Assembly (NCBI GenBank): GCA_964574445.1
Contig: CAZNNQ010000005.1
Coordinates: 5,092 to 69,091, forward strand
From: an uncultured Eubacteriales bacterium
GTDB taxonomy: Bacteria; Bacillota; Peptococcia; Peptococcales; SKKY01
Reading direction: 5' to 3'
DNA length: 64,000 nucleotides
Below the pieces are notes generated by a model. The model did no database searches and was not told where the DNA came from. It saw only the letters and a program-made list of their open reading frames with translations. Below are positions 4,004 to 58,039 of this stretch, in pieces (the first letter of the stretch is position 1; every line of letters starts with the position of its first letter). Made by a program: the position numbers and the translations under genes.

Positions 4004-4010
4004 GGTTGTT

Positions 4011-4937: not shown

Positions 4938-4949
4938 GGGGGATTCTGA

Positions 4950-15179: not shown

Positions 15180-15184
15180 ATAAA

Positions 15185-15562: not shown

Positions 15563-15738
15563 TAATAATATTCCTCCTGAAAATAAATAATATTTTTGTT
15601 TAGAAAAAGATAGTTAGTGGGTATAAGACTTCTATAAACTTTAGAGGCTGCTTAATTTCTCTAATTTTGCCTGCAATACATGTTTTGATTCGAAAGCATC
15701 ATGCTGATCATGGTGTTTTTTTTTGTTCATTATTCTTT

Positions 15739-17258: not shown

Positions 17259-17267
17259 TATATTCTC

Positions 17268-18017: not shown

Positions 18018-18132
18018 TATTATAATCTCCTTTTATATTCTGATTAAAAATAAATGTTATCAGAAGTTTTTTTTATTGTCTACTTAGGGGATTTTTCTTT
18101 TAAAGAGAAATATATAAAGAGGGGGTGAAAAA

Positions 18133-19167
18133 GTGGAAATTATTAATTTTGAAGACCAGCTCATTCTAGATGGAATCAAAAATAATGTTTCTGATATTCA
18201 TTTTGAGCCTAAAAATAATAAGATGATAATTCGTTTTAGAAAAGATGATGTTCTTTATTTAAAAAAAGAAATTAACAAAAGTCAGCAGGATGCCATGACA
18301 ATAAGATTGAAGATCAGAGGAGAAATGGACATTGGAGAAAAAAGAATTATTCAGAAGGGAAGATTTTCTTTCACTGTAAATGATATTGATTATAGTGTGA
18401 GAATTTCCTTAATGCCTACAATACATGGAGAGAAGATTGTACTTAGGATATTAAAAAATCAAGATTTAGATAAGGGGTTTGAGGAGCTAGGGTTTAATCT
18501 TGAACTCCAAGAAAAATTAAAAAAAATTATTTGCTATCCTTCAGGTCTTTTTTTATTCACAGGAACAACGGGGTCTGGAAAAACGACAACTCAAATGACA
18601 TTGCTTAAATTAATGAAGAATAAAGGAAAAAATATTTTAATTATAGAGGACCCGGTTGAATATTTTATGGAGGATGCAAATCAAATTGAAGTTGATAGGG
18701 AAAGGGGGTTTGATTATGGGCTAATACTTAGAGAAAGCTTAAGACAAGACCCAGATTTAATTGTTATAGGTGAAATTAGAGATTCTGAAACAGCAAGAAC
18801 AGCAGTAAGGGCTGCAGGAACAGGTCATCTGGTTTTTGCAACGCTTCATACCGAATCTGGAAAAGATGCCTCAGAAAGATTAGAGGAATTAGGTATTTCT
18901 TTTAGAGAACTGAAAATGGTACTAAAGGGAGTGGTTAGTCAGCGATTAATTAGAAAATTGTGCCAAAAATGTGGGGAAACAAAGGGCTGTATTAATTGTG
19001 ATTACACTGGTTATGATGGAAGATTTGCAGTTGGTGATGTTCTTTTATGGGAAAGGGAAGAGGGATTCAAGGATTTTGATGATATTGAGAACATGAAATT
19101 ACAAGTATTTGAAAAAATTAAAGATGGAGAAACCGATATCGATGAATATAAGAGGAAGTTTATTTAA
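18133..19167 (+). CDS. type IV pilus / competence pseudopilus assembly ATPase (GspE/PilB/ComGA family)
   Basis: Walker A GTTGSGKTTT, His box GHLVFATLHT, and a C-terminal Cys cluster (CQKCGETKGCINCDYTGYDGR). Confidence 0.9.
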   Translation: MEIINFEDQLILDGIKNNVSDIHFEPKNNKMIIRFRKDDVLYLKKEINKSQQDAMTIRLKIRGEMDIGEKRIIQKGRFSFTVNDIDYSVRISLMPTIHGEKIVLRILKNQDLDKGFEELGFNLELQEKLKKIICYPSGLFLFTGTTGSGKTTTQMTLLKLMKNKGKNILIIEDPVEYFMEDANQIEVDRERGFDYGLILRESLRQDPDLIVIGEIRDSETARTAVRAAGTGHLVFATLHTESGKDASERLEELGISFRELKMVLKGVVSQRLIRKLCQKCGETKGCINCDYTGYDGRFAVGDVLLWEREEGFKDFDDIENMKLQVFEKIKDGETDIDEYKRKFI

Positions 19168-20197
19168 AAAGAGTAGAAAAATGAGTCAAAAAAAACTTTT
19201 ATTATTTGTTGAGGATTTAAAACTATCACTTGAATCAGGGTTGACCATAATAGAAGCCTTGGAAATATCAGGCGAAAATACTGAAGACAGTGACATCTTG
19301 AAAAGATGCAAAGATATGCACTGTAATCTTAAAAAAGGGGAAAATCTTACTACTTCCTGGAATTTATCGTTTCCAGAGGAGATAAATGAAACAGGAAATT
19401 TACTATCAATCTACGAAGAAAGTGGAGCAATATCTCAAGGATTTGGGAAGATTGCTTCCTATTTACAAGAAAGAATATATATTAAAAAAAAGTTATTTAA
19501 AAAATTATATTATCCTAGCTTTGTTTTTCTATTGTCGGTGGGAGTTTTAATTTGGTTTATTAACTTTTTTATTCCTTCTATGATTGAAATGTTAAAAGAT
19601 GTCTTAGTTGCTGAAGAGTATTATAAATTAACAAATGTTTTCAAGAAGATTAGGTTGGGGGTTAATGGTAGTGCTGTTTTTAGTTTATTGTTTGCATTAT
19701 ATCTCTGTATATCAAAAAGGGGTCGAGAAAAAACATTAAAAAAACTTTATAAAATAAAAATTTTTAGAAAAATAATTAGTACATTTTATTTGGAAGCATT
19801 TTCCAATCACTTTTTTCATCTTATTAAAAGTGGGTTTTCTGTAATAAAGATATTAGATATATTAAAAAAAGATTCATTTTTTAAGTTTTGCTGGGAAGAT
19901 ACGAATGAATGTATAAGGATTATTTTAAAAGGACAGCCATTGAGTGTTGGAATGAAAGGTTATAGTTTTATTGGAAAAAAGGAGATAGAAATAATAAAAA
20001 AAGGTGAACTAAGGGGAACTTTAGAAGAAGCATTTGATAATATCAATAAATATTCTAAAAAGAAAAAGAATTTCTATTTTAGTGAAATGCTTTCCTATAG
20101 TGAACCCTTTATTATTATCTTTGCCGGAATAATATCTGGTGTTTCTGTATATATGTTTTATAAAATTTTATTTTCTTTTACCTTTACTTTAATATGA
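19109..20197 (+). CDS. type II secretion system F-family platform protein (PilC/ComGB)
   Basis: Polytopic membrane protein located after the ATPase. The start is uncertain: in-frame ATGs occur at 19124, 19142 and 19181, and only 19181 avoids overlap with the upstream gene. Confidence 0.8.
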   Translation: MKKLKMEKPISMNIRGSLFKKSRKMSQKKLLLFVEDLKLSLESGLTIIEALEISGENTEDSDILKRCKDMHCNLKKGENLTTSWNLSFPEEINETGNLLSIYEESGAISQGFGKIASYLQERIYIKKKLFKKLYYPSFVFLLSVGVLIWFINFFIPSMIEMLKDVLVAEEYYKLTNVFKKIRLGVNGSAVFSLLFALYLCISKRGREKTLKKLYKIKIFRKIISTFYLEAFSNHFFHLIKSGFSVIKILDILKKDSFFKFCWEDTNECIRIILKGQPLSVGMKGYSFIGKKEIEIIKKGELRGTLEEAFDNINKYSKKKKNFYFSEMLSYSEPFIIIFAGIISGVSVYMFYKILFSFTFTLI

Positions 20198-20201
20198 GGG
20201 A

Positions 20202-20555
20202 GTGATTTTTTTGAATAAAAAAAATGATGGTTTTACAATGATTGAGATTTTAATTGTTGTTGTTATTATAGGTTTACTTTCAAATATGGCAATTGTAAAT
20301 TACGGGCAAAAAACTAAAGATGCTGAAGAGGTTGTTGAACAGGGGAATATGGTAAATGTAATGACAGCAATTGAATTGTACTATCTTGATAATGGATTTT
20401 ATCCAGATGATTCTCTTGAAGGATCCCTTAATGTTCTTCTTGGAGAAGGGGGAAATACTAGTTATTTAAAAATGAAAGAAGAGGATTTGAACAACTATGA
20501 CTATGTTTTATCTGAAGATAAAATAAGTTATACTGTTAGCATTAAAGAAAGCTGA
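20202..20555 (+). CDS. major (pseudo)pilin with a prepilin-type N-terminal cleavage/methylation signal (ComGC/PilA-like)
   Basis: NDG|FTMIEILIVVVIIGLL: class III signal with Glu at +5. Confidence 0.85.
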   Translation: MIFLNKKNDGFTMIEILIVVVIIGLLSNMAIVNYGQKTKDAEEVVEQGNMVNVMTAIELYYLDNGFYPDDSLEGSLNVLLGEGGNTSYLKMKEEDLNNYDYVLSEDKISYTVSIKES

Positions 20556-20580
20556 TTAAAAAAGGGAAAGAGGGATATTC

Positions 20581-21339
20581 TTGGATCTTATTTTTACATT
20601 TATATTTGGATTACTAATAGGGAGTTTCTTAAATGTAATAATTTATAGGTTACCACGTGAAGAAAGTATTGCATTTCCACCTTCACATTGTACCGAGTGT
20701 GGATGGAAAATAAAGCCTTGGGAAAATATTCCTCTTATCTCTTATCTCTTCTTAAAAGGAAAATGTTCTAGTTGCAAAACAAAGATTTCCCCGATCTACC
20801 CATTTGTAGAATTTTTAACAGGGGTGCTGTATGTTCTAGTTTACCTAAGATATTCATTTACGGTGGAAGGATATATAGGAATAATATTTGTGTCTTTATT
20901 AATATGTATCTTTTTTATCGACCTTAAGCACTATATAATACCGGACAGTATATTATTAATTATATTATTTTTAAGCATTGGGAAAATATTAGTTGTTAAA
21001 GAACCTACTTTTTGGAATGGAATAATAACAATGATAATTACTTTTGTTATATTTTATCTTTTATTTATCCTTTCAAATGAAAAGTTTGGTGGCGGAGATG
21101 TTAAACTTTTTACAGTACTGGGTTTATTTTTTGGATGGCCACAAATAAATTTGTTAATAATTTTAGCTAGTATCTCTGGATTACTCATTGGAGGAGGTTT
21201 AATTCTTCTTCGAATTACAAAGAGAGAAGATCCCATACCATTTGGTCCTTTTATAGTATTTTCTTCAATAATTACACTATTTTATGGAGAAGAAATATGG
21301 CGAATATACGAAGAACTAATTTTGGTTTCACTTTTATAG
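20581..21339 (+). CDS. pilD: prepilin peptidase (A24 family, PilD/ComC)
   Basis: 252 aa. N-terminal Cys pairs (CTECG...CSSCK), multiple TM segments, and a GGGDVKL catalytic Asp motif. Confidence 0.9.
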   Translation: MDLIFTFIFGLLIGSFLNVIIYRLPREESIAFPPSHCTECGWKIKPWENIPLISYLFLKGKCSSCKTKISPIYPFVEFLTGVLYVLVYLRYSFTVEGYIGIIFVSLLICIFFIDLKHYIIPDSILLIILFLSIGKILVVKEPTFWNGIITMIITFVIFYLLFILSNEKFGGGDVKLFTVLGLFFGWPQINLLIILASISGLLIGGGLILLRITKREDPIPFGPFIVFSSIITLFYGEEIWRIYEELILVSLL

Positions 21340-21779
21340 AAACAATTTCAGTTGTAGTAATTACAACTATAATCTTTAGTCTTTCAACGGTGACTGCATT
21401 AGAGATGTTCAATAAAATAAAATTGGAAAAAGCAGTATATAGCATGTACAGTGATATCTGCAGTTTAAGAAATGAGAGTATTTTTACTCTTAAGCCCACG
21501 AGGGTTAGATTCTATTTAAATTACAATAATACCGGGCGAAGCGCATATGTCCTACAGACTTTAAACAATAACATTTGGAAAACAAATAAAAGAATTATAT
21601 TGGATAAAAACCAGAAAATATTTTCTCTTACATTCCCAGGAGGCTCTGTTAATCAGAGCTTTTCTTTTCATGGTACCCCACTTTATTCAGGAAGTGTTGG
21701 TATGAAAGGATCTTTGGGTGAGATATATTATCTGGTTTTTTATAATTCGGGAAGGATAAGGATCAAGGAAAGTGTTTAA
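21297..21779 (+). CDS. minor pseudopilin (ComGD/GspH-like)
   Basis: RRTNFG|FTFIETISVVVI prepilin signal. It overlaps the end of pilD. Confidence 0.7.
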   Translation: MANIRRTNFGFTFIETISVVVITTIIFSLSTVTALEMFNKIKLEKAVYSMYSDICSLRNESIFTLKPTRVRFYLNYNNTGRSAYVLQTLNNNIWKTNKRIILDKNQKIFSLTFPGGSVNQSFSFHGTPLYSGSVGMKGSLGEIYYLVFYNSGRIRIKESV

Positions 21780-22116
21780 TAAAAAAGGGCAAATATATAT
21801 GTCAGTACTTGTAGTTTTTCTATTATTAATAGGTACAACCTGGAATTTATATTTTTTTATTTCTAATTATAAAAATCAGAGGGAAATATTTGATAGGAAC
21901 ACGGAAATTTTTAATAATTGCTTATTAATAAGTAAGGAAAATTGTTTTAAATATAATTCTCTAGGTAGTATTTATATAAATGATGTTTTATATACTATTT
22001 CAAAGGATGAACATGATTCCTTATTAAAAGTTACCGTTTCAGCTTATGAAAATACCATACTGAAAGAAAAAATCAGCAGATATAAATATGTTAACCAAGG
22101 GGTGTTAGATGAATAA
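21772..22116 (+). CDS. pilus-operon small membrane-anchored protein (ComGE/GF-like), hypothetical
   Basis: 114 aa with one N-terminal hydrophobic helix and no Glu at +5. The call rests on operon position only. Confidence 0.5.
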   Translation: MFNKKGQIYMSVLVVFLLLIGTTWNLYFFISNYKNQREIFDRNTEIFNNCLLISKENCFKYNSLGSIYINDVLYTISKDEHDSLLKVTVSAYENTILKEKISRYKYVNQGVLDE

Positions 22117-22594
22117 TATAAATAATAAAGGTACAACTTTTGTAGAGATTATTTCAGCAACTGTGATTTTATTGTTTATGTTTCAGATGATGTTTAATTT
22201 GTTTATTATTCAAAAAAAATTTGGAGAAGATAATTATATGTCAGGAGAATATAGGCGACAAATACATTTTGCTAAAAATTATTTAAGCAGGGATTTTTTT
22301 GAAAGTTTTTCAGCAAGAAAAGTAGAATCAGAAAAACTTGAAATTACTAGTAGTTCTGGTGAAGTAATCACTTATTATCTTGGAGTTGATCCCTATGGCA
22401 AAGAAAGTTGGAAGGGTAAGTCAGAAAAAACATTATATAGAAAGAAAACGGGAGAAAACGCACAACCATTAACTCAATATTGTGATTTATTTATTGTAAA
22501 TGAATCTTTTGAAGATAATCTTCACGTTATAAAGACAGAATTCGGTGGCGGTAATAGAAAAATTTTTATGGAAGGGTATTATTATGAAAATTAG
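22109..22594 (+). CDS. minor pseudopilin
   Basis: NNKG|TTFVEIISATVILL prepilin signal with Glu at +5. Confidence 0.65.
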   Translation: MNNINNKGTTFVEIISATVILLFMFQMMFNLFIIQKKFGEDNYMSGEYRRQIHFAKNYLSRDFFESFSARKVESEKLEITSSSGEVITYYLGVDPYGKESWKGKSEKTLYRKKTGENAQPLTQYCDLFIVNESFEDNLHVIKTEFGGGNRKIFMEGYYYEN

Positions 22595-22946
22595 TTACTT
22601 TTTAATTATGTTTTTTCTTATAAATTTTAGTGCTGTAAGTGTTATGAGTGAATTTTCAAAAGGCATTCATGAGGAGAAATTATATTTGGACAAAGAACAT
22701 TCAAGAGTTCTTGCTGAGTCTGGAGGGGAGATAGCGCTGAGCAAAATATTTAGTGAGGAACCCACTGGAACTTTTGCATATAAAGAAGATATCGGCGAGA
22801 TAAAAATTTCGATAGAAGAAGAAGAGGAGAGCACATTTTTAATAAAATCTGCTGGATTTTTCGGAAGAGGAAAAACTGAAGTTGAAATAAAAGTAAAAAT
22901 AACAGAGGAAAATAATCTTGAAACTAATGAAAAGAAAATGTGGTAA
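22584..22946 (+). CDS. pilus-operon terminal protein (ComGG-like), hypothetical
   Basis: I prefer ATG 22584 (MKISYFLIMFFLINF), which lies after GGAAGGG. It has an N-terminal hydrophobic helix and is the last gene of the operon. Confidence 0.5.
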   Translation: MKISYFLIMFFLINFSAVSVMSEFSKGIHEEKLYLDKEHSRVLAESGGEIALSKIFSEEPTGTFAYKEDIGEIKISIEEEEESTFLIKSAGFFGRGKTEVEIKVKITEENNLETNEKKMW

Positions 22947-23008
22947 CCCTTACAATTAGAGGCTTCCTATGATATATTTTAAAAAAGAAAAAAATAGGAG
23001 GGAAAAAG

Positions 23009-23452
23009 ATGAAAATTATGGTAATTAACGGACCGAATCTAAATATGTTAGGGAAAAGAGACCCTCTTGTATATGGAAAAATGTCTTTACTTGATATTCA
23101 AGAAAAAATCATAGAACATGGAAAAAATCTTGGATTAACCTTCGAATTTTTTCAAAGCAATCATGAAGGAGAAATAATAGATAAAATTCATAAAAGTGCT
23201 GATTGGGCAGAATATGTAATTATTAACCCTGGTGCTTATACTCACTATAGTATTGCAATTAGAGATGCAATAGACTCTGTACCTTCAAAATTTATCGAAG
23301 TTCATTTAAGTAATATTCATGCGCGTGAAGAATTTAGAAAAAAGTCAGTGCTTGCTCCAGTTTGTAGAGGGCAAATAACAGGATTTGGATATCAGGGATA
23401 CTTGATGGCTGTTGATTTTATATATAGGGAAAAGAATGATGAACAAAAATAA
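23009..23452 (+). CDS. aroQ: type II 3-dehydroquinate dehydratase
   Basis: MKIMVINGPNLNMLGKRDPLVYG at the N-terminus and the HLSNIHAREEFR motif. Confidence 0.95.
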   Translation: MKIMVINGPNLNMLGKRDPLVYGKMSLLDIQEKIIEHGKNLGLTFEFFQSNHEGEIIDKIHKSADWAEYVIINPGAYTHYSIAIRDAIDSVPSKFIEVHLSNIHAREEFRKKSVLAPVCRGQITGFGYQGYLMAVDFIYREKNDEQK

Positions 23453-24521
23453 AAGAATTCTTAAAGTAATTGGTTGGTTGAGTGAAGAAGGATTAGATTG
23501 TTTTCTAATAAAGAATCCAAAAAATGTTTTTTATTTATCTGGATTAAAAAGTTCAAATGCCTGGATTCTTATTTATAAGAACAAAGCCTGGTTTATTACA
23601 GATTTTAGATATATAGAAATTGCTAAAAAAGAACTATCAGATTTTTTTGAGATAGAAGATCTAGATAGAAAAAGTATTTCCTATACATTAAATAAAATTA
23701 TTGGCTTTAATTCAGATATAAAAATGGGCTTTGAAACACATAATTTAACATATTTTGAATATAAATCTCTTTCAGAGGAACTTAATAAAAATATTGCCCT
23801 TCACCCTACGGAAGAGGGGGTAGAGCGTTTTAGAAGAATAAAAGATTATCAAGAGATATCCTTTATTAAAGAAGCACAAAAAATTTCTGAAAGAGCTTTA
23901 ACAGAAACAATGAACTTTATTCAACAAGGGCAAGAGGAAAAGAAAATACAAAGAATTTTAGAAAAATATTTATTTGATTTTGGAGCCGAAGATCTTGCTT
24001 TCAAAACAATTGTTGCTGCGGGAAAAAGAGGTTCTTTGCCTCATGCAGTCCCATCTAATTATAAAATTAAGGAAGGGGATTTTGTTACAATTGACATGGG
24101 ATGTAAATATTTTGGATATTGTTCTGATATGACTAGAACTTTTGCAGTAGGAAATGTTGAAGAATATAAAAGAAAAATATATAATATAGTATTGAAAGCT
24201 CAAAATGTAGCTTTAAAAGAAATAAAAGCAGGAAAATTAACAAAAGATATTGATAAAATTAGTAGAGATATTATTGAAACTGAAGGTTTTGGTCAATATT
24301 TTGGTCATGGACTTGGCCACAGTCTTGGTATCGAAGTTCATGAAGCACCATCTTTTTCTCCTTTGTCCAAAGATATCCTAGAGGAAGATATGGTTATGAC
24401 TGTTGAACCTGGGATTTATATTCCTAATTCATTTGGATTAAGAATTGAAGATTTGGTTGTAGTAAAAAAAGATGGAATTGAAAATCTTACAGAAATGAAA
24501 AAAGACTTAATTATTCTTTAA
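23436..24521 (+). CDS. pepP: Xaa-Pro aminopeptidase (M24B)
   Basis: [13 protein letters not shown] and TVEPGIY metal-site motifs. The start is set at ATG 23436. Confidence 0.85.
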
Positions 24522-24550
24522 ATCAAAAAAATAAAAGGGTGGATGAATTA

Positions 24551-25108
24551 ATGATTTCAACAAGTGATTTTAAAACCGGACTTACAATTGAGATTGATGG
24601 TGATCCTTTTCAAGTTGTAGAGTTTCAACACGTAAAACCAGGTAAAGGTGCTGCTTTTGTAAGAGCTAAATTAAGAAATTTGAGATCTGGATCAACAACT
24701 GAAAAAACTTTTAGGGCAGGAGAAAAATTGCCTAAAGCACCAATTGAAAGAAAAGAGATGCAATATCTTTATAATGATGGTGAAAGTTATGTTTTCATGG
24801 ATAACGAGTCATATGAACAAATTAATGTATCCGAAGAAAAACTTGATGGTGCAGAGAAATTCTTAGTTGAAAATATGGATTGTTCTGTTGCATTCTATCA
24901 TGGAGAGATAATTGCTCTGGAAGTACCAAATACGGTAATACTTGAGGTTGTAGAAACAGAACCAGGTATAAAAGGAGACACAGCTTCAGGTGGCACAAAG
25001 CCGGCTAAACTTCAAACTGGTATTACAGTTCAAGTTCCCTTCTTTGTTAATGAGGGCGAAAAAATAAAAGTTGATACTCGCACAGGTTTTTATATTGAAA
25101 GAGCTTAG
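24551..25108 (+). CDS. efp: translation elongation factor P
   Basis: [17 protein letters not shown]...[19 protein letters not shown] 24551 lies 9 nt after GGGTGG and matches the canonical EF-P N-terminus. Confidence 0.95.
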
Positions 25109-30977: not shown

Positions 30978-30989
30978 TATTATTAAGAT

Positions 30990-31590
30990 GTAAGGACAGG
31001 TGGAGTATTATTCTAGTCGAATATCTACTTTCGAAGGCGGGCTTAAAAATCCGTTAAAGGGCACATCGATGAAGTTCCTGGTGGTGGCTTTGGACGCCCA
31101 GTCTGGGGTTGCTGCTGGGAGTTAAGATTGTAGGGCTACTTGCAATGGCATGCAGGGATGACCCTGCTTTCGTGGAGACCCAAGTGCGTGTATTGTACCA
31201 TCGTGTGCAGTGGATGGCTTGGGATTAAACCTGCATCCGGGGTAACTCGGGTGTAGCGTAGCCTACCTTGAGCGTTTTAAGCGGATAAGCAGTTAAGTGG
31301 GTGATGGATTGTGGCCACAGTTTGTTATTCATTGCTTTGAAACTTAATTAATGCAAAAGAGGCTAGAAAGTAGCTCTATTTGCCGGGGAAAACTCCTAGA
31401 GTATATACCGCAAGGTATGATCTTGCAGGGATTAAAGTGTGGTCTGAGTGGTGATCTAGTTCTGCTAATGGCGACATGCAGGGAAGGCTTTAAAAGGAAA
31501 CTGCCGGAAGGGCGACCAACGGTAGCCTTTTGGGAAAACCTACTAGACCTAAGCCACAATATTTATCTGTGAGATTTCCACCTGTCCATT
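30990..31590 (+). ncRNA. ole: OLE (ornate, large, extremophilic) RNA
   Basis: A roughly 630-nt gap with no credible ORF lies between ispA/DUF212 and a small membrane-protein gene followed by dxs, which is the canonical OLE context. G+C rises sharply: I counted 34/60 by hand for 31081-31140. The ends are complementary (GGACAGGTGGA 30994-31004 with TCCACCTGTCC 31577-31587). Internal helices include GCAGGG-atga-CCCTGC (31152-31167), CCCAAG/CTTGGG (31179-84 / 31218-23) and ATACC-GCAA-GGTAT (31405-31418). Confidence 0.8.
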
Positions 31591-31609
31591 TTATTTTGGA
31601 GTGAATTGA

Positions 31610-50181: not shown

Positions 50182-50442
50182 TGAAGACCTCATTCATCAG
50201 GATGGGGTAGAGGTTGCAGAGAATATAAGTATTGTTTTAGAGACTTTGAGGAGTCGTTGAAAAACAGGAAAGGATTTTCTGCCGAAGTGTTTATTCTCCT
50301 CAAAGAATAGGTGCTGGGGTTGCATTGAATAAGTGCAAAACTGTCGTCAGTTATCTGACGTTGAGCTACTTCAGATATGAATGTATCTTTTTAAGGGATT
50401 ATTAGGCCTAAAAGATATAATTTATCTTTTTGGCCTTTTTTT
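50182..50442 (+). promoter_or_regulatory. lysine riboswitch (L-box) with a terminator expression platform, controlling dapB-asd-dapA
   Basis: Conserved L-box elements are present: TAGAGGTTGC, AAGTA, GCCGAAG, CTGGGG, AACTGTC and TTGAGCTACTTCA, the last closing P1 with TGAAG at 50182. A terminator follows: AGGCCTAAAAGATA...TATCTTTTTGGCCT plus T7 (50403-50442). Lysine-pathway genes lie downstream. Confidence 0.85.
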
Positions 50443-50463: not shown

Positions 50464-51246
50464 GTGCTAAAAGTTGCGGTTCTCGGAGCCTGCGGTAAAA
50501 TGGGTCTGGAAATTGTGAGATCTGTTATAAAAGAGGAGGGATTAGAACTCACGGAAGCTATAGATATCACGAATTTTGGATATGACATTGGCCTGCTTGC
50601 TGGAATAGGAGATCAAGGAGTTAAGGTAAAATCTATTAATGAATTAACGAACCCGGATATTTTGATTGATTTTACAAATGCTACTAGTTTCAGGGCAAAT
50701 ATGGAAACAATTTTAAAAAAGAAAATCAATGTAGTCAGTGGTTCAACAGGAATGAGTGATGATGAACTTAATTCATATGGGGAAATTGCTTTAGAAAATG
50801 AAGTAACTCTTTTTTTAGCACCAAACTATGCAATAGGTGCAGTGTTAATGATGAAGTTTGCCAAAGAGGCTGCTAAATATATTAAAGATATTGAAGTATT
50901 AGAATATCATCATGATCAGAAACTTGACGCTCCTTCAGGTACGGCCAAAAAGACATTAGATGACATGGCTAGTGTAAGAGGAATAAAAGTCCAAGGACAC
51001 CCTGAAGAATTTGAAACTATTGAAGGATCAAGGGGTGGAGAATATAAAGGTATGAGAGTTCATAGCATAAGATTACCTGGTTATGTTGCCAGCCAAGAAG
51101 TAATTTTTGGAACATTAGGACAAACATTAACTATTAGACATGACTCAATTTCTAGAGAGTCATTTATGCCGGGTATAATGATGGCTTGTAAAAAAATTAA
51201 AAGCCTAAAAAAAGGTTTAGTATTTGGCTTAGAAGAAATATTATAA
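50464..51246 (+). CDS. dapB: 4-hydroxy-tetrahydrodipicolinate reductase
   Basis: KVAVLGACGKMG NAD(P) motif and EYHHDQKLDAPSGTA motif. GTG 50464 lies 6 nt after GGAGGTG. Confidence 0.93.
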   Translation: MLKVAVLGACGKMGLEIVRSVIKEEGLELTEAIDITNFGYDIGLLAGIGDQGVKVKSINELTNPDILIDFTNATSFRANMETILKKKINVVSGSTGMSDDELNSYGEIALENEVTLFLAPNYAIGAVLMMKFAKEAAKYIKDIEVLEYHHDQKLDAPSGTAKKTLDDMASVRGIKVQGHPEEFETIEGSRGGEYKGMRVHSIRLPGYVASQEVIFGTLGQTLTIRHDSISRESFMPGIMMACKKIKSLKKGLVFGLEEIL

Positions 51247-51272
51247 AATATTTAATATAGGGAGGAATAATA

Positions 51273-52274
51273 ATGAGACTTGGAATCGTTGGAGCTACAG
51301 GAGCAGTAGGCCAAGAACTATTAAAGTGTATTGAAGAAAGAAATTTTCCATTTACAGAGTTAGTTTTATTAGCAAGCAGTAGATCTGCTGGAACAAAAAT
51401 TGATTTTATGGGAAAAACATATACCGTAGAAGAAACAACCGAAGATTCATTTGACAAGCTAGATATGGCTCTTTTTGCAGGAGGTCCAGCAAGCAGAGCT
51501 TTTGGAAGACTTGCACAAAGCAAAGGTGTAATAGTAATTGACAATAGTTCAACATTTAGAATGGAAGATGATGTTCCTTTAGTTGTTCCTGAAGTAAATC
51601 CAGAGGCTCTTGATAACCATAAGAATCTTATCGCAAATCCAAATTGTTCAACAATTATTATGGTTGCTGCATTATATCCTATTCATAAATATGCAACTAT
51701 AAAAAGAATTATTGTATCTACGTATCAAGCGGTATCCGGAGCAGGTAAAGAAGGAATTGATGAGTTGAATCTTCAAGTAAGACAATCACTTAACGGAGAA
51801 GAGACACAACCAGAAGTTTTTGCAAAACAAATTGCTTTTAATGTTGTTCCAAGAATTGATGTATGGGTTGATGAAGACTATACAAAAGAAGAAATGAAAA
51901 TGGTCTGGGAGACTCAAAAGATTTTTAATGTTCCCGATCTTGCAGTAACTGCAACTACAGTAAGAGTACCAGTTTTTAGAAGTCATTCTGAGTCAATTTA
52001 TATTGAGACTGAAAAACCAATTGATGCGGAGAAGGCAAGAGAAATATTGCAGAACGCACCTGGGGTTATTCTTCAGGATGATCCTGAAAATGAAGTATAT
52101 CCAACACCACTTGAAACTTCAACAAAAGATGAGGTTTTTGTTGGAAGAATTAGAAATGACCTATTTACAAAAAATGCACTAAATCTTTGGGTTGTTTCAG
52201 ATCAGATAAAAAAAGGTGCAGCGTTAAACACAATTCAAATAGCTGAAGAAATGATTAAAAGAAATCTTATTTAG
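51273..52274 (+). CDS. asd: aspartate-semialdehyde dehydrogenase
   Basis: MRLGIVGATGAVGQE at the N-terminus, NPNCSTI active-site Cys, and the VRVPVFRSHSES motif. Confidence 0.95.
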   Translation: MRLGIVGATGAVGQELLKCIEERNFPFTELVLLASSRSAGTKIDFMGKTYTVEETTEDSFDKLDMALFAGGPASRAFGRLAQSKGVIVIDNSSTFRMEDDVPLVVPEVNPEALDNHKNLIANPNCSTIIMVAALYPIHKYATIKRIIVSTYQAVSGAGKEGIDELNLQVRQSLNGEETQPEVFAKQIAFNVVPRIDVWVDEDYTKEEMKMVWETQKIFNVPDLAVTATTVRVPVFRSHSESIYIETEKPIDAEKAREILQNAPGVILQDDPENEVYPTPLETSTKDEVFVGRIRNDLFTKNALNLWVVSDQIKKGAALNTIQIAEEMIKRNLI

Positions 52275-52285
52275 GAGGAAAAATT

Positions 52286-53179
52286 ATGGAGTACGGCAGA
52301 TTATATACAGCAATGATAACCCCAATGTATGATAATGAAAAAGTTGATTTTCATAAAGCAGGGGTGTTAGCAAATCATCTTATAGAAAATGGTTCAGATG
52401 GTGTAGTAGTGGCTGGAACTACGGGAGAAGCCCCTCTCTTAACATATAAAGAAAAGATTGAACTTTTTAAAGTTGTTAAAGAGGCTGTTGGAAATCGTGG
52501 TCATGTTATTGCGGGTACGGGAGGTAACGAAACTATTGAAGCGGTTGAAATGACTAGAGATGCAGAAGAAATTGGTTGTGATGCCTCTATGTTGGTTGTA
52601 CCCTACTATAACAAACCACCCCAAGAACTGATATATAAACACTTTAAGATGGTAGCTGAATTAAGCCGTAAAATACCGATAATTCTATATAATATTCCGG
52701 GAAGAACAGCGGTCAATATGCTGCCAGAAACTGTAGTAAGATTAGCACAAGAATTCCCTAATATTAATGCCATAAAAGAAGCTTCTGGTTGTATTGACCA
52801 GATTATGGAGATTAAAAGACTTACAGGAAATAAAATGAAAATTTTTAGTGGCGATGATGGCATGACTTTACCAATTCTTTCTATTGGTGGCCATGGATTA
52901 ATTAGTGTAAGCTCACATGTTGTTGGAAAAGAATTAAAACAGATGATTAATTGTTTTCTAGCTGGAGATGTTGAATATGCAAGAAAAATAAATGATAAAC
53001 TTTACCCAATTGTTAAATCGATGTTTTTAACAACTAATCCAATCCCCGTAAAAACAGCAATGAATATTCTAGGTCACGAAGTAGGACCAATGAGAATGCC
53101 AATGGAATTAGCTTCTGGAAAGGTCTTTGAAGAGCTGAAGGAAAACCTAGAAGCCTTTGGAATAAAAAATATTAAATAA
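52286..53179 (+). CDS. dapA: 4-hydroxy-tetrahydrodipicolinate synthase
   Basis: AGTTGEAPLL, YNKP and YNIPGRT motifs, plus IKEASG containing the Schiff-base Lys. Confidence 0.95.
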   Translation: MEYGRLYTAMITPMYDNEKVDFHKAGVLANHLIENGSDGVVVAGTTGEAPLLTYKEKIELFKVVKEAVGNRGHVIAGTGGNETIEAVEMTRDAEEIGCDASMLVVPYYNKPPQELIYKHFKMVAELSRKIPIILYNIPGRTAVNMLPETVVRLAQEFPNINAIKEASGCIDQIMEIKRLTGNKMKIFSGDDGMTLPILSIGGHGLISVSSHVVGKELKQMINCFLAGDVEYARKINDKLYPIVKSMFLTTNPIPVKTAMNILGHEVGPMRMPMELASGKVFEELKENLEAFGIKNIK

Positions 53180-53185
53180 TATTAT

Positions 53186-53220
53186 AAAATCCATCCCAAA
53201 AAAGGGATGGATTTTTATTT
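53186..53220 (+). terminator. intrinsic terminator after dapA
   Basis: AAATCCATCCC-aaaaaa-GGGATGGATTT hairpin followed by a T-rich tail. Confidence 0.85.
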
Positions 53221-53264
53221 CAAAAAAAAATACAATAAAAAAACAAAATATTCAGAAAATTCTG

Positions 53265-53293
53265 TTGACTTCAAAAAAAGTCCATGGTATTAT
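53265..53293 (+). promoter_or_regulatory. near-consensus sigma-A promoter with an extended -10
   Basis: TTGACT (53265-70), a 17-nt spacer, then TGgTATTAT (-10 at 53288-93). Confidence 0.6.
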
Positions 53294-53299
53294 AAAGAT

Positions 53300-53773
53300 A
53301 CTCCAAAAGAGATTAGATTTAAGGAAACTTAAATCGGCTCTTATTGGTAGGCTCTCTGGATAACTTAATAAGTAGTAATCTCTTAAAAGTAGTTTTTGAA
53401 AGTGTATCAAGAAAGTGTGAAAAGCTTTACAAGGTGCAAATAAGAAAATGAAAGGCAAAGAACGAAAGTTGTTTGTAAGTTGAGTAAGTTAGAAGTTGCA
53501 AGGAAGTTTGGTAACTAAGAGTAACTGGAAAAAACTGTAAGATAAAGGTAATTGAAAGTTAGTTAGAAGTTAGTAAATGAAAGTCAGCTTTTAAGGAAAA
53601 ACAGTAAAAAAAGAGATGAAACGGAATTAAGTTATTAACGCTTATCGAAGGAAAAGCTCAGAGGGACAATTTTATAGGGGGTACTGTTATTTGCAGTACG
53701 ATTGTAAAGGAAGAAGATGAAGGAAATCTCAATTAGTCAGTTGAGAGAGTACTCCATCTTCTTCCGTTTTTTT
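53300..53773 (+). ncRNA. candidate unclassified ~470-nt non-coding transcript (structured 5' domain, C-poor AAGUU-repeat core, intrinsic terminator)
   Basis: No + strand ORF of 60 aa or more is listed in the ORF track between dapA and pcrA, and by my reading the small ORFs in the repeat core are at most about 10 aa. 5' domain: AGAGATTA (53308-15) pairs with TAATCTCT (53376-83), enclosing GATTTAAG-GAAA-CTTAAATC (53316-35). Eight AAGTT copies lie in 53466-53633. Terminator: GGAAGAAGATG (53709-19) pairs with CATCTTCTTCC (53755-65), followed by T7. pcrA has its own TGaTATAAT promoter at 53817-25. Confidence 0.5.
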
Positions 53774-53863
53774 GTAAAAAAAATAAACTTTTATTTTATG
53801 CTATTCTGCTATCTTATGATATAATTAATGTATTAGAATGGAAAAATTAAGGAGATGCTGATA

Positions 53864-56023
53864 TTGAATTTACTAGAAAACCTTAATCCGATGCAGAAAG
53901 AGGCTGTTCAACACGTTGAAGGGCCTTTATTAATTTTAGCCGGAGCGGGATCTGGAAAAACAAGAGTTATTATTCACAGGATTGCTTATCTGATATTTGA
54001 AAAGAAGATAAGTCCTTATAATATTCTTGCTATAACATTCACCAATAAAGCAGCCAGCGAAATGAAAAGCAGGCTTGAAAAGTTAATTGGTGTTGAAGGA
54101 GAGAAAGTATGGACGAGTACTTTTCATTCCATGTGCGTAAGAATTTTAAGAAGAGAAATACAAAATTTAGATTATAGTCCGGATTTTGTTATTTATGACA
54201 CTCAGGATCAATTATCGGTGATTAAAACAATTCTTAAAGAACGTAATTTAGAAGAAAAAAAATATCCTCCAAAGTTAATACTAGATAGGATCTCAAATTA
54301 TAAGAACCAACTTATTGGTGCAGCAGAATCTTCTAAATATGCATTGAATTATTTTGATGAAGTTATCACAGATATATATAAAGATTACCAGAAGAAACTT
54401 TTTAGTTTTAATGGGCTTGATTTTGATGATTTAATTATGTTAATGGTTAGGCTTTTCAGAGAAAATCCCGAAGTTTTGGAAAAATATCAAGATAGATTTA
54501 AATATATATTAGTTGATGAATATCAAGATACCAATAAAGCTCAATATGAATTAGTTAAAATGCTTGCTGCAAAATATAAAAATATTGCTGTAGTTGGTGA
54601 TGATGATCAGTCAATTTATCAATGGCGTGGGGCTGATATTACTAATATTCTTGAATTTGAAAAAGATTACCAAGAGACCAAAGTGATTAAACTTGAACAA
54701 AACTATAGATCAACAAAAACAATTATTAGTGCAGCTAATGCCGTTGTTTCTAAAAATGCACAAAGAAAAGATAAAACCTTAGTAACTGATAAAGGTGAAG
54801 GAGAAAAAATATATTATTATCCTGCTTATGATGAAATAGAAGAAGCAAGCTTTATCTCAAATAAGATTGAAGATTTAAAGACAAAAGATAATAAAAAATA
54901 TAAAGATTTTGCAATACTATGTCGTGTTACTTCTCAGTTCCGTGCTATAGAAGAGGGATTAATACGCAAAGGTCTTCCTTATAAAATTTTCGGTGGAATT
55001 AAATTCTACGAAAGAAAAGAAGTTAAAGATATTCTTGCATACCTAAGATTAATCGTTAATGATGGGGACGAAATATCACTAAAAAGAGTTATTAATAGTC
55101 CGAAACGAGGTATAGGTGAGGGAAGTTGGGAAAAATTAGCTGCTTATGCACAACAAGAAAACATAACGATTTATCAATCTATGGACTTTACTGAAGAAGC
55201 TGAAATAAGCAAACGAACTTCAGAAGCTATTAAAAATTTCAAAAAAATGATGGATCATTTTAAAGAAGAAAGCAAAATTAAGAATGTAACTGATCTTACT
55301 AATATAATATTACTAGACACAGGCTATATAGAAGAGCTAAAAAATGAAAAAACAATTGAATCAGAAACAAGGTTAGAAAACCTTCAAGAATTTTTATCTG
55401 TGACTACTGAATATGATCAAACCAGTGTAGATGGCAATTTAGCTCAATTCCTTTCCGAAATAGCTTTAGTTAGTGATACTGACACCTATCAAGAAGATGA
55501 TGATGCTGTGGTTATGATGACTATTCATAGTGCAAAAGGCCTTGAATTTCCAGTAGTTTTTTTAACTGGTCTTGAAGAAAATATTTTCCCTCATAGTAGA
55601 AGCCTTAATTCTGGAGAACCAACAGAAGTTGAGGAAGAAAGACGTCTTTGTTATGTAGCAATTACCAGAGCAGAAGAAAACCTCTTTATTACAAGGGCTT
55701 GGAGAAGAAAAATGTTTGGCCGTGATTCATATAATCAACAATCTAGATTTATTAGTGAGATACCAAAAAAACATATTCATAATGATGAATCAAAAGAAAA
55801 GCAAGTTAACATGAATCAAGATACAATTCCTAAGATTGCTCCCATTGGCAAAGATTCAGACTTTTTAGCAATTGGAGATCAAATTGAACACAAAAAGTGG
55901 GGAGTTGGATGTATAGTTGCTATTCATGGTGATGGAGAAGATTCAGAAATTAGTATTGCTTTTCCAAATCTAGGAATAAAGAAACTTATCGGAAAATATG
56001 CACCAATTGTAAAAATAAAGTAG
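53864..56023 (+). CDS. pcrA: ATP-dependent DNA helicase PcrA (UvrD/Rep family)
   Basis: LNPMQKEAV, AGAGSGKT, VDEYQDTN and TIHSAKGLEF motifs. TTG 53864 lies 9 nt after AAGGAG and is preferred over ATG 53855, which abuts the SD. Confidence 0.93.
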   Translation: MNLLENLNPMQKEAVQHVEGPLLILAGAGSGKTRVIIHRIAYLIFEKKISPYNILAITFTNKAASEMKSRLEKLIGVEGEKVWTSTFHSMCVRILRREIQNLDYSPDFVIYDTQDQLSVIKTILKERNLEEKKYPPKLILDRISNYKNQLIGAAESSKYALNYFDEVITDIYKDYQKKLFSFNGLDFDDLIMLMVRLFRENPEVLEKYQDRFKYILVDEYQDTNKAQYELVKMLAAKYKNIAVVGDDDQSIYQWRGADITNILEFEKDYQETKVIKLEQNYRSTKTIISAANAVVSKNAQRKDKTLVTDKGEGEKIYYYPAYDEIEEASFISNKIEDLKTKDNKKYKDFAILCRVTSQFRAIEEGLIRKGLPYKIFGGIKFYERKEVKDILAYLRLIVNDGDEISLKRVINSPKRGIGEGSWEKLAAYAQQENITIYQSMDFTEEAEISKRTSEAIKNFKKMMDHFKEESKIKNVTDLTNIILLDTGYIEELKNEKTIESETRLENLQEFLSVTTEYDQTSVDGNLAQFLSEIALVSDTDTYQEDDDAVVMMTIHSAKGLEFPVVFLTGLEENIFPHSRSLNSGEPTEVEEERRLCYVAITRAEENLFITRAWRRKMFGRDSYNQQSRFISEIPKKHIHNDESKEKQVNMNQDTIPKIAPIGKDSDFLAIGDQIEHKKWGVGCIVAIHGDGEDSEISIAFPNLGIKKLIGKYAPIVKIK

Positions 56024-58039
<2,016 letters not shown>

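What the first reader, a model, noticed from the sequence alone, without database searches (positions are those of the whole stretch)
53265..53773. Orphan ~470-nt C-depleted, AAGUU-repeat RNA with its own strong promoter and terminator upstream of pcrA
The 675-bp dapA-pcrA spacer is the largest non-coding gap in the window apart from OLE.

Transcription signals:
- A near-consensus extended -10 promoter: TTGACT, 17 nt, TGgTATTAT.
- About 470 nt later, an 11-bp GC-containing hairpin followed by T7.
- pcrA has a separate TGaTATAAT promoter after that terminator, so this looks like an independent transcription unit.

The 5' ~80 nt fold into a closed domain. AGAGATTA pairs with TAATCTCT, enclosing an 8-bp stem with a GAAA loop.

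The central ~170 nt are almost devoid of C, which I estimate at about 5 percent by hand count. That stretch carries eight copies of AAGTT, mostly as AAGTT(A/G)G, at spacings of 7-11 nt. I expect fewer than one copy by chance at this composition.

A G/A/U-rich, poorly pairable repeat core bracketed by structured ends is what one expects of a protein-titrating (sponge) RNA. I could not match it to T-box, L-box, 6S, CsrB-like GGA-hairpin or other classes I know.
Basis: seen in the sequence. Interest (0 to 1): 0.65.

Follow-up and report, generated by a model that had tools for sequence, protein, structure and literature searches.

The report
Very abundant new structured non-coding RNA

Summary
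The sequence features are real. There is a near-consensus extended -10 promoter, a long intrinsic terminator, a separate pcrA promoter, eight AAGTT copies and a core with about 5% C.

Public metatranscriptomes show a discrete RNA covering about 53312-53722, with no coverage of dapA or pcrA. Its depth equals or exceeds that of OLE RNA from the same genome. In one compost run the orthologue reaches about 14,000-25,000x, against 9.8x for pcrA.

I found 13 full orthologues, all just downstream of dapA, in about seven lineages of uncultured Bacillota. Neutral sites in the flanking genes are saturated, yet the RNA is 82-93% conserved. It matches no Rfam family.

All lineages share one architecture:
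- A long-range, covarying stalk.
- A purine-rich, C-poor body made of lineage-specific 9-13-nt repeats.
- An invariant 3' module (AGGRGG, then a GUACUG/CAGUAC hairpin showing UUG, then a 9-codon frame ending in the terminator).

AAGUU itself is only modestly enriched (8 observed, 3.5 expected) and is not conserved in deeper lineages.

My best reading is a new family of abundant trans-acting scaffold or titrating RNA, possibly under CodY control. The mechanism is inferred, not shown.

The parts
53188..53220 (+). dapA intrinsic terminator (AATCCATCCC...GGGATGGATTTTTATTT). It insulates the RNA gene from the dap operon.
   Evidence: the weak Rfam terminator-like hits here only reflect the hairpin plus U-tract
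53247..53261 (.). CodY-box-like palindrome AATATTCAGAAAATT, with 1 mismatch to AATTTTCWGAAAATT. It abuts the -35 element.
   Evidence: only two sites with <=1 mismatch in the 64 kb; kept with 1-2 mismatches in 12 of 13 loci and 3 in L024; consensus as used in PMC4608796 and PMC5314169
53265..53293 (+). Promoter: -35 TTGACT (53265-53270), 17-nt spacer, extended -10 TGgTATTAT (53285-53293). Predicted start is near 53300.
   Evidence: conserved in all homologues
53300..53773 (+). Predicted primary transcript (about 474 nt), from the inferred start to the end of the terminator U-tract.
   Evidence: strand inferred from the promoter/terminator orientation, the MFE asymmetry and conserved G-U pairs
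53312..53722 (+). Span recovered again and again as a 100%-identical contig in metatranscriptomes. It may be the mature, processed 411-nt species.
   Evidence: X7, X8 and X9 start at 53312 (X9 with an adapter junction); X3, X4 and X8 end at 53720-53723. The orthologue in L002 ends at 3828-3834 with a back-join typical of template switching at an RNA 3' end
53301..53350 (+). 5' hairpin domain: helix CUCCAAAAGAG / CUCUUAUUGGUAG enclosing the 8-bp GAAA-loop hairpin (53316-53335). Absent in L013 and L015.
   Evidence: helices 1 and 2; two pairs with double changes; for the absence
53352..53384 (+). 5' strands of the long-range stalk: H1 CUCUCUG (53352-53358), H2 GAUAACUUAAU (53359-53369), H3 AUCUCUU (53378-53384).
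53385..53610 (+). Purine-rich (A+G about 0.68), C-poor (about 5-6%) body. It holds seven of the eight AAGUU copies (53466-53571), two GUAACU and several AAGGAA. Most of its structure is weak.
53611..53665 (+). 3' strands of the stalk: H3 AAGAGAU (53611-53617), H2 AUUAAGUUAUU (53626-53636, which holds the 8th AAGUU), a small covarying hairpin GCUU...AAGC (53640-53657), and H1 CAGAGGG (53659-53665).
   Evidence: (helix 8 has 4 pairs with double changes)
53666..53720 (+). Invariant 3' module: an A/U-rich linker, the Shine-Dalgarno-like AGGGGG (53676-53681), the hairpin GUACUG-UUAUUUG-CAGUAC (53681-53699) showing UUG (53691-53693), and a 9-codon frame UUG...UGA (53691-53720).
   Evidence: AGGRGGUACUG and UUGCRGUAC are invariant in 11 distinct sequences; the spacer is 8-10 nt; the frame is 9 codons in 13 of 13 loci, with the stop in the terminator 5' arm
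53709..53773 (+). Intrinsic terminator: lower stem 53709-53719 / 53755-53765, an internal loop with AAGGAA, the apical hairpin CUCAA...UUGAG, then G plus U7 (53767-53773).
53817..53825 (+). Separate pcrA promoter (extended -10 TGaTATAAT). pcrA most likely starts at TTG 53864, after the SD AAGGAG at 53849-53854.
   Evidence: conserved in homologues; the database protein P0001 is 719 aa

Best explanation
**What it is (shown)**
- It is the gene of a previously undescribed, independently transcribed non-coding RNA.
- The primary transcript is about 474 nt. The species that accumulates covers at least 53312-53722.
- It is among the most abundant transcripts of its host.
- It is conserved immediately downstream of dapA in a small clade of uncultured anaerobic Bacillota. 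The records label these MAGs Peptococcia, Eubacteriales or Clostridia; they come from digesters, compost and bovine gut.

**Architecture (shown by independent folds and covariation)**
- An optional 5' hairpin domain.
- A stalk of two to three long-range helices. In the window these are CUCUCUG/CAGAGGG, AUAACUUAAU/AUUAAGUUAU and AUCUCUU/AAGAGAU.
- The stalk closes a purine-rich, C-poor, weakly structured body of about 220-270 nt, built from short (9-13 nt) lineage-specific repeats.
- An invariant 3' module follows: an A/U linker, AGGRGG, a GUACUG/CAGUAC hairpin showing UUG, a 9-10-nt linker and the terminator.

**Mechanism (inferred)**
- It probably acts in trans and stoichiometrically, as a scaffold or titrating RNA.
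- The multivalent purine-rich repeat body would serve as a platform for many copies of an abundant RNA-binding protein.
- The stalk and the 3' module would give stability and a second, sequence-specific docking site, possibly for the 30S subunit.
- C depletion may also keep a long untranslated RNA free of Rho-loading sites.
- A conserved CodY-like box next to the -35 element suggests control by nutrient status.
For: **Expression**
- Four unrelated metatranscriptomes each hold a 100%-identical contig of 348-416 nt covering only this region.
- Across window 25-64 kb, only OLE and this RNA are covered.
- Depth is 24-26 against 6-8 for OLE in X7 and X8.
- In X18 the L002 orthologue reaches 14,490-25,000, against 9.8 for pcrA. 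The window form reaches 545-5,370, with zero coverage of the flanks.
- DNA runs are flat across the locus (about 15x and about 5x), so the gene is single copy.

**Selection**
- Four-fold degenerate sites of dapA and pcrA are only 0.32-0.43 identical to those of all relatives, which is saturation.
- The 3' module is 0.82-0.93 identical. The repeat body is 0.84-0.89 identical (aligned columns) to L022 and L002.

**Structure**
- MFE is -127.7 kcal/mol with z = -7.7, against -83.2 on the other strand.
- Each lineage folded alone returns the same stalk, 3' hairpin and terminator, with z between -5.2 and -7.7.
- On nine sequences 94.8% of cells are paired. Fourteen pairs change on both sides, against 4.9 +/- 1.7 in shuffles (0 of 500 reach the observed value) and 2-4 in slid controls.
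- L024 and L026 keep the stalk with different sequences: CCUCUUUGAC/GUUGAAGAGG and CUCUCUC/GAGAGAG.

**Composition and repeats**
- The inner body has 4-7% C in most lineages. Purines make up 0.64-0.72 in all of them, including the more GC-rich L026.
- Every lineage has its own short tandem repeat.
- The words GUA, AGUA, AAGU and GUAA are enriched in all five lineages tested.
- AAGGAA occurs 6 times against 0.9 expected, and A.GGA 8 times against 3.3, in the window lineage.

**Independence from pcrA**
- pcrA has its own conserved promoter.
- In L024 two genes lie between the RNA and pcrA.

**CodY box**
-.
Against: - No binding partner is identified. Nothing in the window points to one.
- The repeat motif is not conserved across the family, and single AAGUU copies are lost in close relatives. 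Motif-specific binding would therefore need co-evolution in each lineage.
- The repeats could instead be slippage products in a spacer.
- The most conserved part is the 3' module, not the body. That points to the 3' module as the business end.
- Abundance was read from assembler contig depths, not from read counts. The strand and the ends are inferred, not measured.
- Whether these genomes encode CodY, CsrA or Hfq could not be checked.
Confidence: 0.4

Rival explanations
1. **Rival 1: the body is only an expansion segment.** The functional core is the covarying stalk plus the invariant 3' module, acting as a specific RNP or a catalytic or structural RNA, in the manner of OLE or raiA. The purine-rich repeat body tolerates slippage and has no motif-specific role. 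Its only constraints are composition (low C to avoid Rho loading and misfolding) and length.
For: - Conservation is highest in the 3' module, and the stalk is preserved by covariation.
- The body sequence is replaced wholesale between lineages.
- The body shows no structure beyond chance in the window lineage: z = -1.5, -0.4 and +1.0.
- AAGUU enrichment is modest.
Against: - The body is still 0.84-0.89 identical (aligned columns) between the window and L022 or L002, while synonymous sites are saturated. Within a lineage its sequence is therefore under purifying selection.
- The purine bias and the short tandem repeats recur in every lineage.
Confidence: 0.25
2. **Rival 2: the RNA engages the ribosome.** The invariant AGGRGG, 8-10-nt spacer, UUG and 9-codon frame form a real translation initiation region. 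Either the RNA docks or titrates 30S/70S particles, or translation of the mini-frame into the terminator stem governs 3'-end formation or processing and read-through.
For: - In 13 of 13 loci the SD-like element, the spacer length, a UUG at the 3' end of a loop of otherwise variable length, and a frame of exactly 9 codons are kept.
- The stop codon lies in the terminator 5' arm even in L024, where the linker and the terminator sequence differ.
- An A/U-rich linker precedes the SD.
- RNA-seq contigs end at or next to the stop codon in two species.
Against: - The peptide is not conserved beyond MQY, which is encoded by the hairpin strand. Codons 4-6 change non-synonymously at all three positions.
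- The constant length could equally be a spacing constraint between two helices.
- The hairpin shows no covariation at all, so its sequence rather than its coding capacity may be what is recognised.
- The downstream gene has its own promoter and differs in L024.
- No alternative antiterminator pairing was found.
Confidence: 0.15
3. **Rival 3: the RNA binds RNA polymerase like 6S or Ms1, or it is a base-pairing sponge for other RNAs.** It would accumulate when nutrients run out.
For: - Abundance is very high.
- A long irregular closing stalk is present.
- A CodY-like box sits at the promoter.
- There are many copies of AAGUU and of its complement AACUU/GUAACU that could pair in trans.
Against: - The Rfam 6S models give no hit.
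- The length is more than twice that of 6S.
- The conserved 3' module lies outside the stalk.
- No central bubble is conserved.
- No target RNA is identified.
Confidence: 0.1
4. **Rival 4: it is a cis-acting leader or attenuator of pcrA, or a decayed gene (for example pcrB) with no function.**
For: - The position immediately upstream of pcrA in 12 of 13 loci.
- The spacer length is similar to that of a pcrB gene.
Against: - pcrA has its own conserved extended -10 promoter after the terminator.
- In L024 the RNA stays with dapA while two genes, one on the other strand, separate it from pcrA.
- The RNA exceeds pcrA mRNA more than 1000-fold.
- No frame is conserved, indels are not multiples of three, and Pfam finds nothing.
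- The sequence is far more conserved than neutral sites.
Confidence: 0.04

Closest known systems
OLE RNA (RF01071), present in the same window at 30984-31597
   Same: - A large, highly structured, orphan non-coding RNA of anaerobic Bacillota.
- It has its own transcription unit.
- It is among the most abundant transcripts. The two are the only features of window 25-64 kb seen in several metatranscriptomes.
   Different: - No sequence or model similarity.
- Shorter: about 410-470 nt against about 610 nt.
- Narrow distribution: one small clade.
- Contains a hypervariable repeat body and an SD-UUG module.
- No associated oap-like genes nearby.
Protein-titrating RNAs with repeated motifs (CsrB/RsmZ with GGA; CrcZ with A-rich motifs)
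   Same: - Abundant, with its own promoter and terminator.
- Several short purine-rich motifs, some in loops. In the window lineage A.GGA occurs 8 times against 3.3 expected and AAGGAA 6 times against 0.9, and AAGUU occurs 8 times.
   Different: - The motifs are not conserved across the family.
- The body is enclosed by a long-range covarying stalk.
- The most conserved element is a 3' module with no counterpart in those RNAs.
- No partner protein is known. The Csr/Rsm families are among the Rfam models that gave no hit.
6S RNA / Ms1
   Same: Abundance, a long irregular closing helix, and a possible link to nutrient limitation through the CodY-like box.
   Different: More than twice as long, no conserved central bubble, a conserved 3' extension outside the stalk, and no Rfam 6S hit.
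Leader-peptide attenuators (short leader frames ending in or before a terminator)
   Same: A strong SD, a start codon, a 9-codon frame and a stop inside the terminator 5' arm, conserved in 13 of 13 loci.
   Different: - It sits at the 3' end of a roughly 400-nt structured RNA.
- The downstream gene has its own promoter and is not constant.
- No antiterminator alternative was found.
- The terminated or processed RNA accumulates to extreme levels.

Membership tests
Any Rfam 15 family (4227 models, including T-box, L-box, 6S, tmRNA, RNase P, SRP, CsrB/Rsm, raiA, ROOL, GOLLD) | A covariance-model match at or near the family's gathering score | tested here: not met
   Window 53150-53900 at E <= 10 gives only noise (<= 19.6 bits, all far below the cut-offs). 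The orthologous loci L002, L013, L015 and L023 give no hit in the RNA at E <= 1. The whole window at the gathering threshold gives only OLE and the lysine riboswitch.
T-box leader | Stem I with a specifier loop, a conserved T-box sequence forming an antiterminator, and a downstream aminoacyl-tRNA synthetase or amino-acid gene without its own promoter | tested here: not met
   No RF00230 hit. The downstream gene is pcrA with its own promoter. GGGGGUAC only superficially resembles GGUGGUACC.
tmRNA | A tRNA-like domain formed by the 5' and 3' ends, and a tag reading frame | tested here: not met
   ARAGORN finds nothing in 53000-54000. No Rfam tmRNA hit.
6S RNA | About 180-200 nt, with the ends paired in a closing stem around a large central bubble | tested here: not met
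   Length is 410-474 nt. The stalk closes at 53352/53665, leaving about 100 nt of conserved 3' sequence outside it. No RF00013 hit. Binding to RNA polymerase cannot be tested here.
CsrB/RsmZ-type CsrA sponge | Many A(N)GGA motifs, preferentially in hairpin loops, conserved across orthologues; CsrA encoded by the host | tested here: inconclusive
   A.GGA occurs 8 times against 3.3 expected (P = 0.008) and AAGGAA 6 times against 0.9 in the window lineage, several of them unpaired. There is no enrichment in L013 or L015 (P = 0.4-0.8). The presence of csrA in the host could not be tested.
   8 copies against 3.5 +/- 1.8 expected (P = 0.017) in the window. P = 0.11 in L013 and 0.23 in L015. Copies 2, 3 and 5 are each lost in one or more close relatives. 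Other lineages carry other repeats.
Leader-peptide transcription attenuator | SD plus a short ORF whose translation changes terminator formation; the regulated gene lies directly downstream without its own promoter; mutually exclusive antiterminator pairing | tested here: inconclusive
   The SD, UUG and 9-codon frame with its stop in the terminator arm are kept in 13 of 13 loci. However, the downstream gene has its own conserved promoter, it differs in L024, and no antiterminator was found in the folds.
Type III toxin-antitoxin antitoxin RNA (ToxI-like) | Tandem repeats of about 34-36 nt followed by a toxin endoribonuclease gene | tested here: not met
   The repeats have a 9-13-nt period and are degenerate. 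The downstream gene is pcrA.
Decayed protein gene (for example pcrB) | Residual protein similarity, and frame-preserving conservation | tested here: not met
   The five ORFs of 32-68 aa have no significant Pfam match; the only listed match is PF19425 at E 0.016, 15.6 bits, below its 27-bit cut-off. Indels of 1 and 2 nt separate orthologues. Conservation far exceeds that of synonymous sites.
CodY regulon member | A CodY box (AATTTTCWGAAAATT) at the promoter; codY in the genome; CodY-dependent expression | tested here: inconclusive
   The box has 1 mismatch, lies at 53247-53261 and is conserved. The consensus comes from papers found. The presence of codY and any regulation could not be tested.

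The most novel reading that the evidence does not exclude
A new class of super-abundant RNA that engages the ribosome. In this reading the invariant AGGRGG, UUG-in-loop hairpin and the 9-codon frame running into the terminator form a docking site for 30S/70S particles. The RNA, possibly induced when CodY repression lifts, would either titrate ribosomes or initiation factors or use a bound ribosome to set its own 3' end. The purine-rich repeat body would act as a multivalent scaffold that might also drive self-association, through its many AAGUU/AACUU or GUAC self-complementary words. No described bacterial RNA works this way.
Probability: 0.12. Interest if true: 0.85.

Novelty: new variant of a known kind. 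Interest (0 to 1): 0.7.

Why it matters
Large, abundant, structured bacterial RNAs of unknown function (OLE, raiA, ROOL, GOLLD) are rare, and each has opened a new line of work. This RNA reaches or exceeds OLE's level in the same organism. In one sample it exceeds a housekeeping mRNA more than 1000-fold.

It is under strong purifying selection and has a covariation-supported fold. It combines features not seen together before: a long-range stalk, a fast-evolving repeat body with conserved composition, and an invariant SD-UUG hairpin feeding a 9-codon frame into its own terminator.

The hosts are common in anaerobic digesters, compost and bovine gut. The RNA is therefore also a very sensitive activity marker for them in metatranscriptomes. 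It would also matter for annotation, because such reads are currently unassigned.

The limits are real. The clade is narrow and uncultured, and the function is inferred only.

Tried and rejected
- **Rfam.** I searched at the gathering threshold and at permissive thresholds, on the window and on four orthologous loci. Nothing matched.
- **tmRNA.** ARAGORN found nothing.
- **Protein remnant or small ORFs.** There was no Pfam signal, and no frame is conserved except the 9-codon one in the 3' module.
- **Mobile origin.** There was no similarity in plasmids, phages or IMG/VR. The element is single copy per locus and single copy in DNA runs.
It is not conserved; the alternative pairing covaries.
- **AAGUU as a family-wide motif.** Rejected.
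- **GGA (CsrA-type) motifs as a family-wide feature.** Rejected for L013 and L015.
- **Helix ACAAUU/GAUUGU flanking the 3' hairpin.** It breaks in L023, L026 and L024.
- **pcrA leader.** Rejected by L024 and by pcrA's own promoter.
- **More distant relatives.**
  - Relatives with PcrA about 61% identical (L019-L021), and one with DapA 58% identical (L028), lack the RNA at these loci.
  - The family boundary therefore lies between about 58% and 63% DapA identity, unless the gene has moved.
- **Literature.** Searches found no description of this RNA.
- **Technical failures.**
  - One contig look-up failed and was repeated.
  - All RNA runs were available only as contigs, so strand and exact ends could not be measured.
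Full report
**1. What is in the sequence**

The spacer between dapA (52286-53179) and pcrA is 675 bp.
- dapA ends with its own terminator (53188-53220).
- TTGACT-17-TGgTATTAT lies at 53265-53293.
- A long hairpin follows later: GGAAGAAGATG...CATCTTCTTCC at 53709-53765, then G and T7 ending at 53773.
- A second extended -10 element, TGATATAAT, lies at 53817-53825 in front of pcrA.
- pcrA more probably starts at TTG 53864 than at ATG 53855, because the database protein is 719 aa.
- Eight AAGTT copies lie on the + strand between 53466 and 53633. The best other 170-nt window in the 64 kb has four.
- C is 5.3% in 53440-53610.

- The chance expectation for AAGTT is 3.5 +/- 1.8 copies at this dinucleotide composition (P about 0.017), not below one.
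- 5% C is not unusual in this window. Its + strand averages 13% C and reaches 4% elsewhere.
- The helix AGAGATTA/TAATCTCT is not kept in relatives.

**2. It is a real and extremely abundant RNA**

The region is held by many public metatranscriptomes from bovine gut, compost, digesters and sludge.
- In four unrelated RNA runs a single 100%-identical contig of 348-416 nt covers only 53308-53723. dapA and pcrA have no coverage.
- Across window 25-64 kb, the same runs show only two features: OLE RNA (30984-31597) and this RNA.
- In X7 and X8 its depth is 26.1 and 23.6, against 6.4-7.7 for OLE.
- In the compost run X18, the orthologue of a sister species (L002) has contig depths of 14,490-25,000, while the adjacent pcrA mRNA has 9.8.
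- In the same run the window's own form has depths of 545-5,370, with empty flanks and no OLE at 97% identity.
- DNA metagenomes are flat across 51000-56500 at about 15x and about 5x. The signal therefore comes from transcription, not from copy number.

Contig depth is a rough measure, but ratios of 10^3 are robust.

The contigs carry no strand information. I infer the + strand from three things:
- the orientation of the promoter and terminator;
- the folding asymmetry, -127.7 against -83.2 kcal/mol;
- conserved G-U pairs, which would be C-A mismatches on the other strand.

The contig ends recur.
- Starts fall at 53312 in X7, X8 and X9. In X9 the start abuts an adapter.
- Ends fall at 53720-53723 in X3, X4 and X8.
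- In L002 the coverage stops at the homologous place (3828-3834). The contig then continues with an internal piece of the same RNA, which looks like template switching at an RNA 3' end.

This suggests a processed species of about 411 nt that lacks the first 12 nt and most of the terminator. Coverage loss at a stable hairpin cannot be excluded.

**3. Relatives**

I found 13 full and several partial orthologues, using PcrA and DapA relatives and a DNA pattern. They come from uncultured Bacillota labelled Peptococcia, Eubacteriales or Clostridia.
- The full loci are the window, L001, L011, L012, L022, L002, L025, L023, L026, L027, L013, L015 and L024. They fall into about seven sequence lineages.
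- The RNA always follows dapA.
- In L024 (DapA 63% identical) a 97-aa gene and an opposite-strand rubrerythrin-like gene lie between the RNA and pcrA. The RNA is therefore not tied to pcrA.
- Relatives at about 61% PcrA identity or 58% DapA identity lack it at these loci.
- Nothing similar exists in plasmids, phages or IMG/VR.
- No paper describing it was found.
- No Rfam model matches the window or the orthologues. ARAGORN finds no tmRNA.

**4. Selection**

Between the window and every relative, four-fold degenerate sites of dapA and pcrA are only 0.32-0.43 identical. That is saturation.
- The 3' module of the RNA is 0.82-0.93 identical.
- The AAGUU-bearing middle is 0.84-0.89 identical (aligned columns) to L022 and L002.
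- The middle falls to background level against L013 and L015.

The body sequence is therefore constrained within a lineage but has been replaced between lineages.

No reading frame is conserved across the RNA, since 1- and 2-nt indels occur. The ORFs have no significant Pfam match; the only listed hit is below its cut-off.

**5. Structure**

The RNA is strongly structured, with z = -7.7. Folding each lineage on its own returns the same plan, with z between -5.2 and -7.7.

The plan has these parts:
- A 5' hairpin domain (53301-53350), absent in L013 and L015.
- A stalk of long-range helices:
  - H1 53352-58 / 53659-65;
  - H2 53359-69 / 53626-36;
  - H3 53378-84 / 53611-17.
- A small hairpin at 53640-53657.
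- A 6-bp hairpin at 53681-53699.
- A long terminator.

On nine sequences, 94.8% of cells are paired. Fourteen pairs show changes on both sides, against 4.9 +/- 1.7 in column shuffles (0 of 500 shuffles reach the observed value) and 2-4 when partners are slid.

Examples of covariation:
- H1: U-A becomes A-U in L013, and G-C becomes C-G in L026.
- H3: A-U becomes G-C in L002 and L023.
- The small hairpin reads GCUU/AAGC, CAAG/CUUG, GCCU/AGGC or UCGG/CCGA in different lineages.
- Five pairs of the terminator change on both sides in L024.
- L024 keeps a stalk with unrelated sequences.

The inner half of the body is not more stable than shuffled sequence in the window lineage (z = -1.5, -0.4, +1.0). 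It is more stable in L015 (z = -5.9), whose GUAC-containing repeats are self-complementary.

**6. The body**

Its primary sequence is not conserved, but its character is.
- Purines make up 0.64-0.72 of the inner body in every lineage.
- C is 4-7% of the inner body in most lineages and 11% in the more GC-rich L026.
- Every lineage has short degenerate tandem repeats:
  - about 9-11 nt (GUAAGUUGA-like) in the window;
  - 13 nt (GAAAGAUUUUCAA) in L013;
  - 10 nt (AGAGUAGUAC-like, about nine copies) in L015.
- The words enriched in all five lineages tested are GUA, AGUA, AAGU and GUAA.
- In the window lineage AAGGAA (6 copies against 0.9 expected) is more strongly enriched than AAGUU, but it too is lineage-specific.
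- Individual AAGUU copies are lost in L001, L022, L002 and L023.

**7. The invariant 3' module**

Across 11 distinct sequences, AGGRGGUACUG and UUGCRGUAC never vary apart from the two R positions. The hairpin loop between them varies in length (6-8 nt) but always ends in UUG.

Together these give a Shine-Dalgarno-like element, a spacer of 8-10 nt, a UUG and a frame of exactly nine codons. The stop codon lies in the 5' arm of the terminator in all 13 loci, including L024, where the linker and the terminator sequence differ.

The peptide is not conserved beyond MQY, which the hairpin strand encodes. Codons 4-6 change at all three positions. If the frame is used, it is the act of translation or of ribosome binding that matters. 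The constant length could equally be a spacing constraint between helices. I leave this as a rival and as the most novel reading.

**8. Promoter context**

AATATTCAGAAAATT (53247-53261) differs at one position from the CodY box AATTTTCWGAAAATT. The consensus is the one used in PMC4608796 and PMC5314169.
- It abuts the -35 element.
- It is one of only two sites with one mismatch or fewer in the 64 kb, where my estimate from base composition gives about 0.15-0.2 by chance.
- It is kept in 12 of 13 loci. L024 keeps only the right half.

Whether the hosts encode CodY could not be checked.

**9. Interpretation**

*Shown:* this is an independent, single-copy gene for a very abundant, structured, selectively constrained non-coding RNA of a new family.

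*Inferred:* it acts in trans and stoichiometrically. The extreme abundance, the multivalent purine-rich repeat body and the closed stalk fit a scaffold or titrating RNA. C depletion also fits avoidance of Rho loading on a long untranslated RNA, given the established preference of Rho for C-rich, G-poor RNA.

Confidence in the alternatives:
- core RNP with a spacer-like body, 0.25;
- ribosome engagement through the 3' module, 0.15;
- 6S-like RNA or RNA sponge, 0.10;
- pcrA leader or gene remnant, 0.04.

My confidence that this is a genuine, abundant, independent ncRNA is about 0.9. My confidence in the titration or scaffold mechanism is about 0.4.

Noticed in passing
window 53247-53261 and 1759-1773: These are the only two sites in the 64 kb within one mismatch of the CodY box AATTTTCWGAAAATT. 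One abuts the -35 of the RNA promoter and is conserved in orthologues. The other lies in the divergent spacer between the ORFs ending at 1698 (-) and starting at 1834 (+).
   Followed up: partly
window 53855-53866: The longest pcrA ORF starts at ATG 53855, directly after AAGGAG. The TTG at 53864 has proper SD spacing, and the identical database protein is 719 aa, so pcrA probably starts at 53864.
   Followed up: partly
window 30984-31597: A full-length OLE RNA (476.6 bits). It is expressed in the same metatranscriptomes, at levels similar to or lower than the new RNA.
   Followed up: partly
window 50200-50376: A lysine riboswitch precedes the dapB-asd-dapA operon that ends just before the RNA gene. 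The same arrangement occurs in L002.
   Followed up: no
L001 about 3095-3105: dapA of the Peptococcia MAG OZ245787.1 carries an in-frame stop (..KLYPV*KSMF..). It is either a pseudogene or a long-read assembly error.
   Followed up: no
L002 5717-5822, L013 4750-4851, L015 4753-4858, L023 4298-4386: Sub-threshold hits to Rfam n00280 ('C. difficile sRNA included into helicase gene') lie inside pcrA in every relative. This looks like coding-sequence conservation rather than an RNA.
   Followed up: no
L002 3834 joined to about 3697 (run X18); window 53312 (run X9): At very high depth, one contig joins the apparent 3' end of the RNA back to an internal AAGGAA site. Another contig carries adapter sequence right at 53312. 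Both hint at defined RNA ends that differ from the predicted start (about 53300) and terminator end (53773).
   Followed up: partly
L024 1982-2943: In the most distant carrier, a 97-aa coiled-coil-like ORF and an opposite-strand rubrerythrin/DUF2202 gene are inserted between the RNA and pcrA. The 97-aa ORF starts about 80 nt after the RNA terminator.
   Followed up: partly
window 53297-53309 and 53749-53762: The word UACUCCA occurs both at the predicted 5' end of the transcript and in the 3' arm region of the terminator. These are the two stretches missing from the recurrent 53312-53722 contigs. The meaning is unknown.
   Followed up: no
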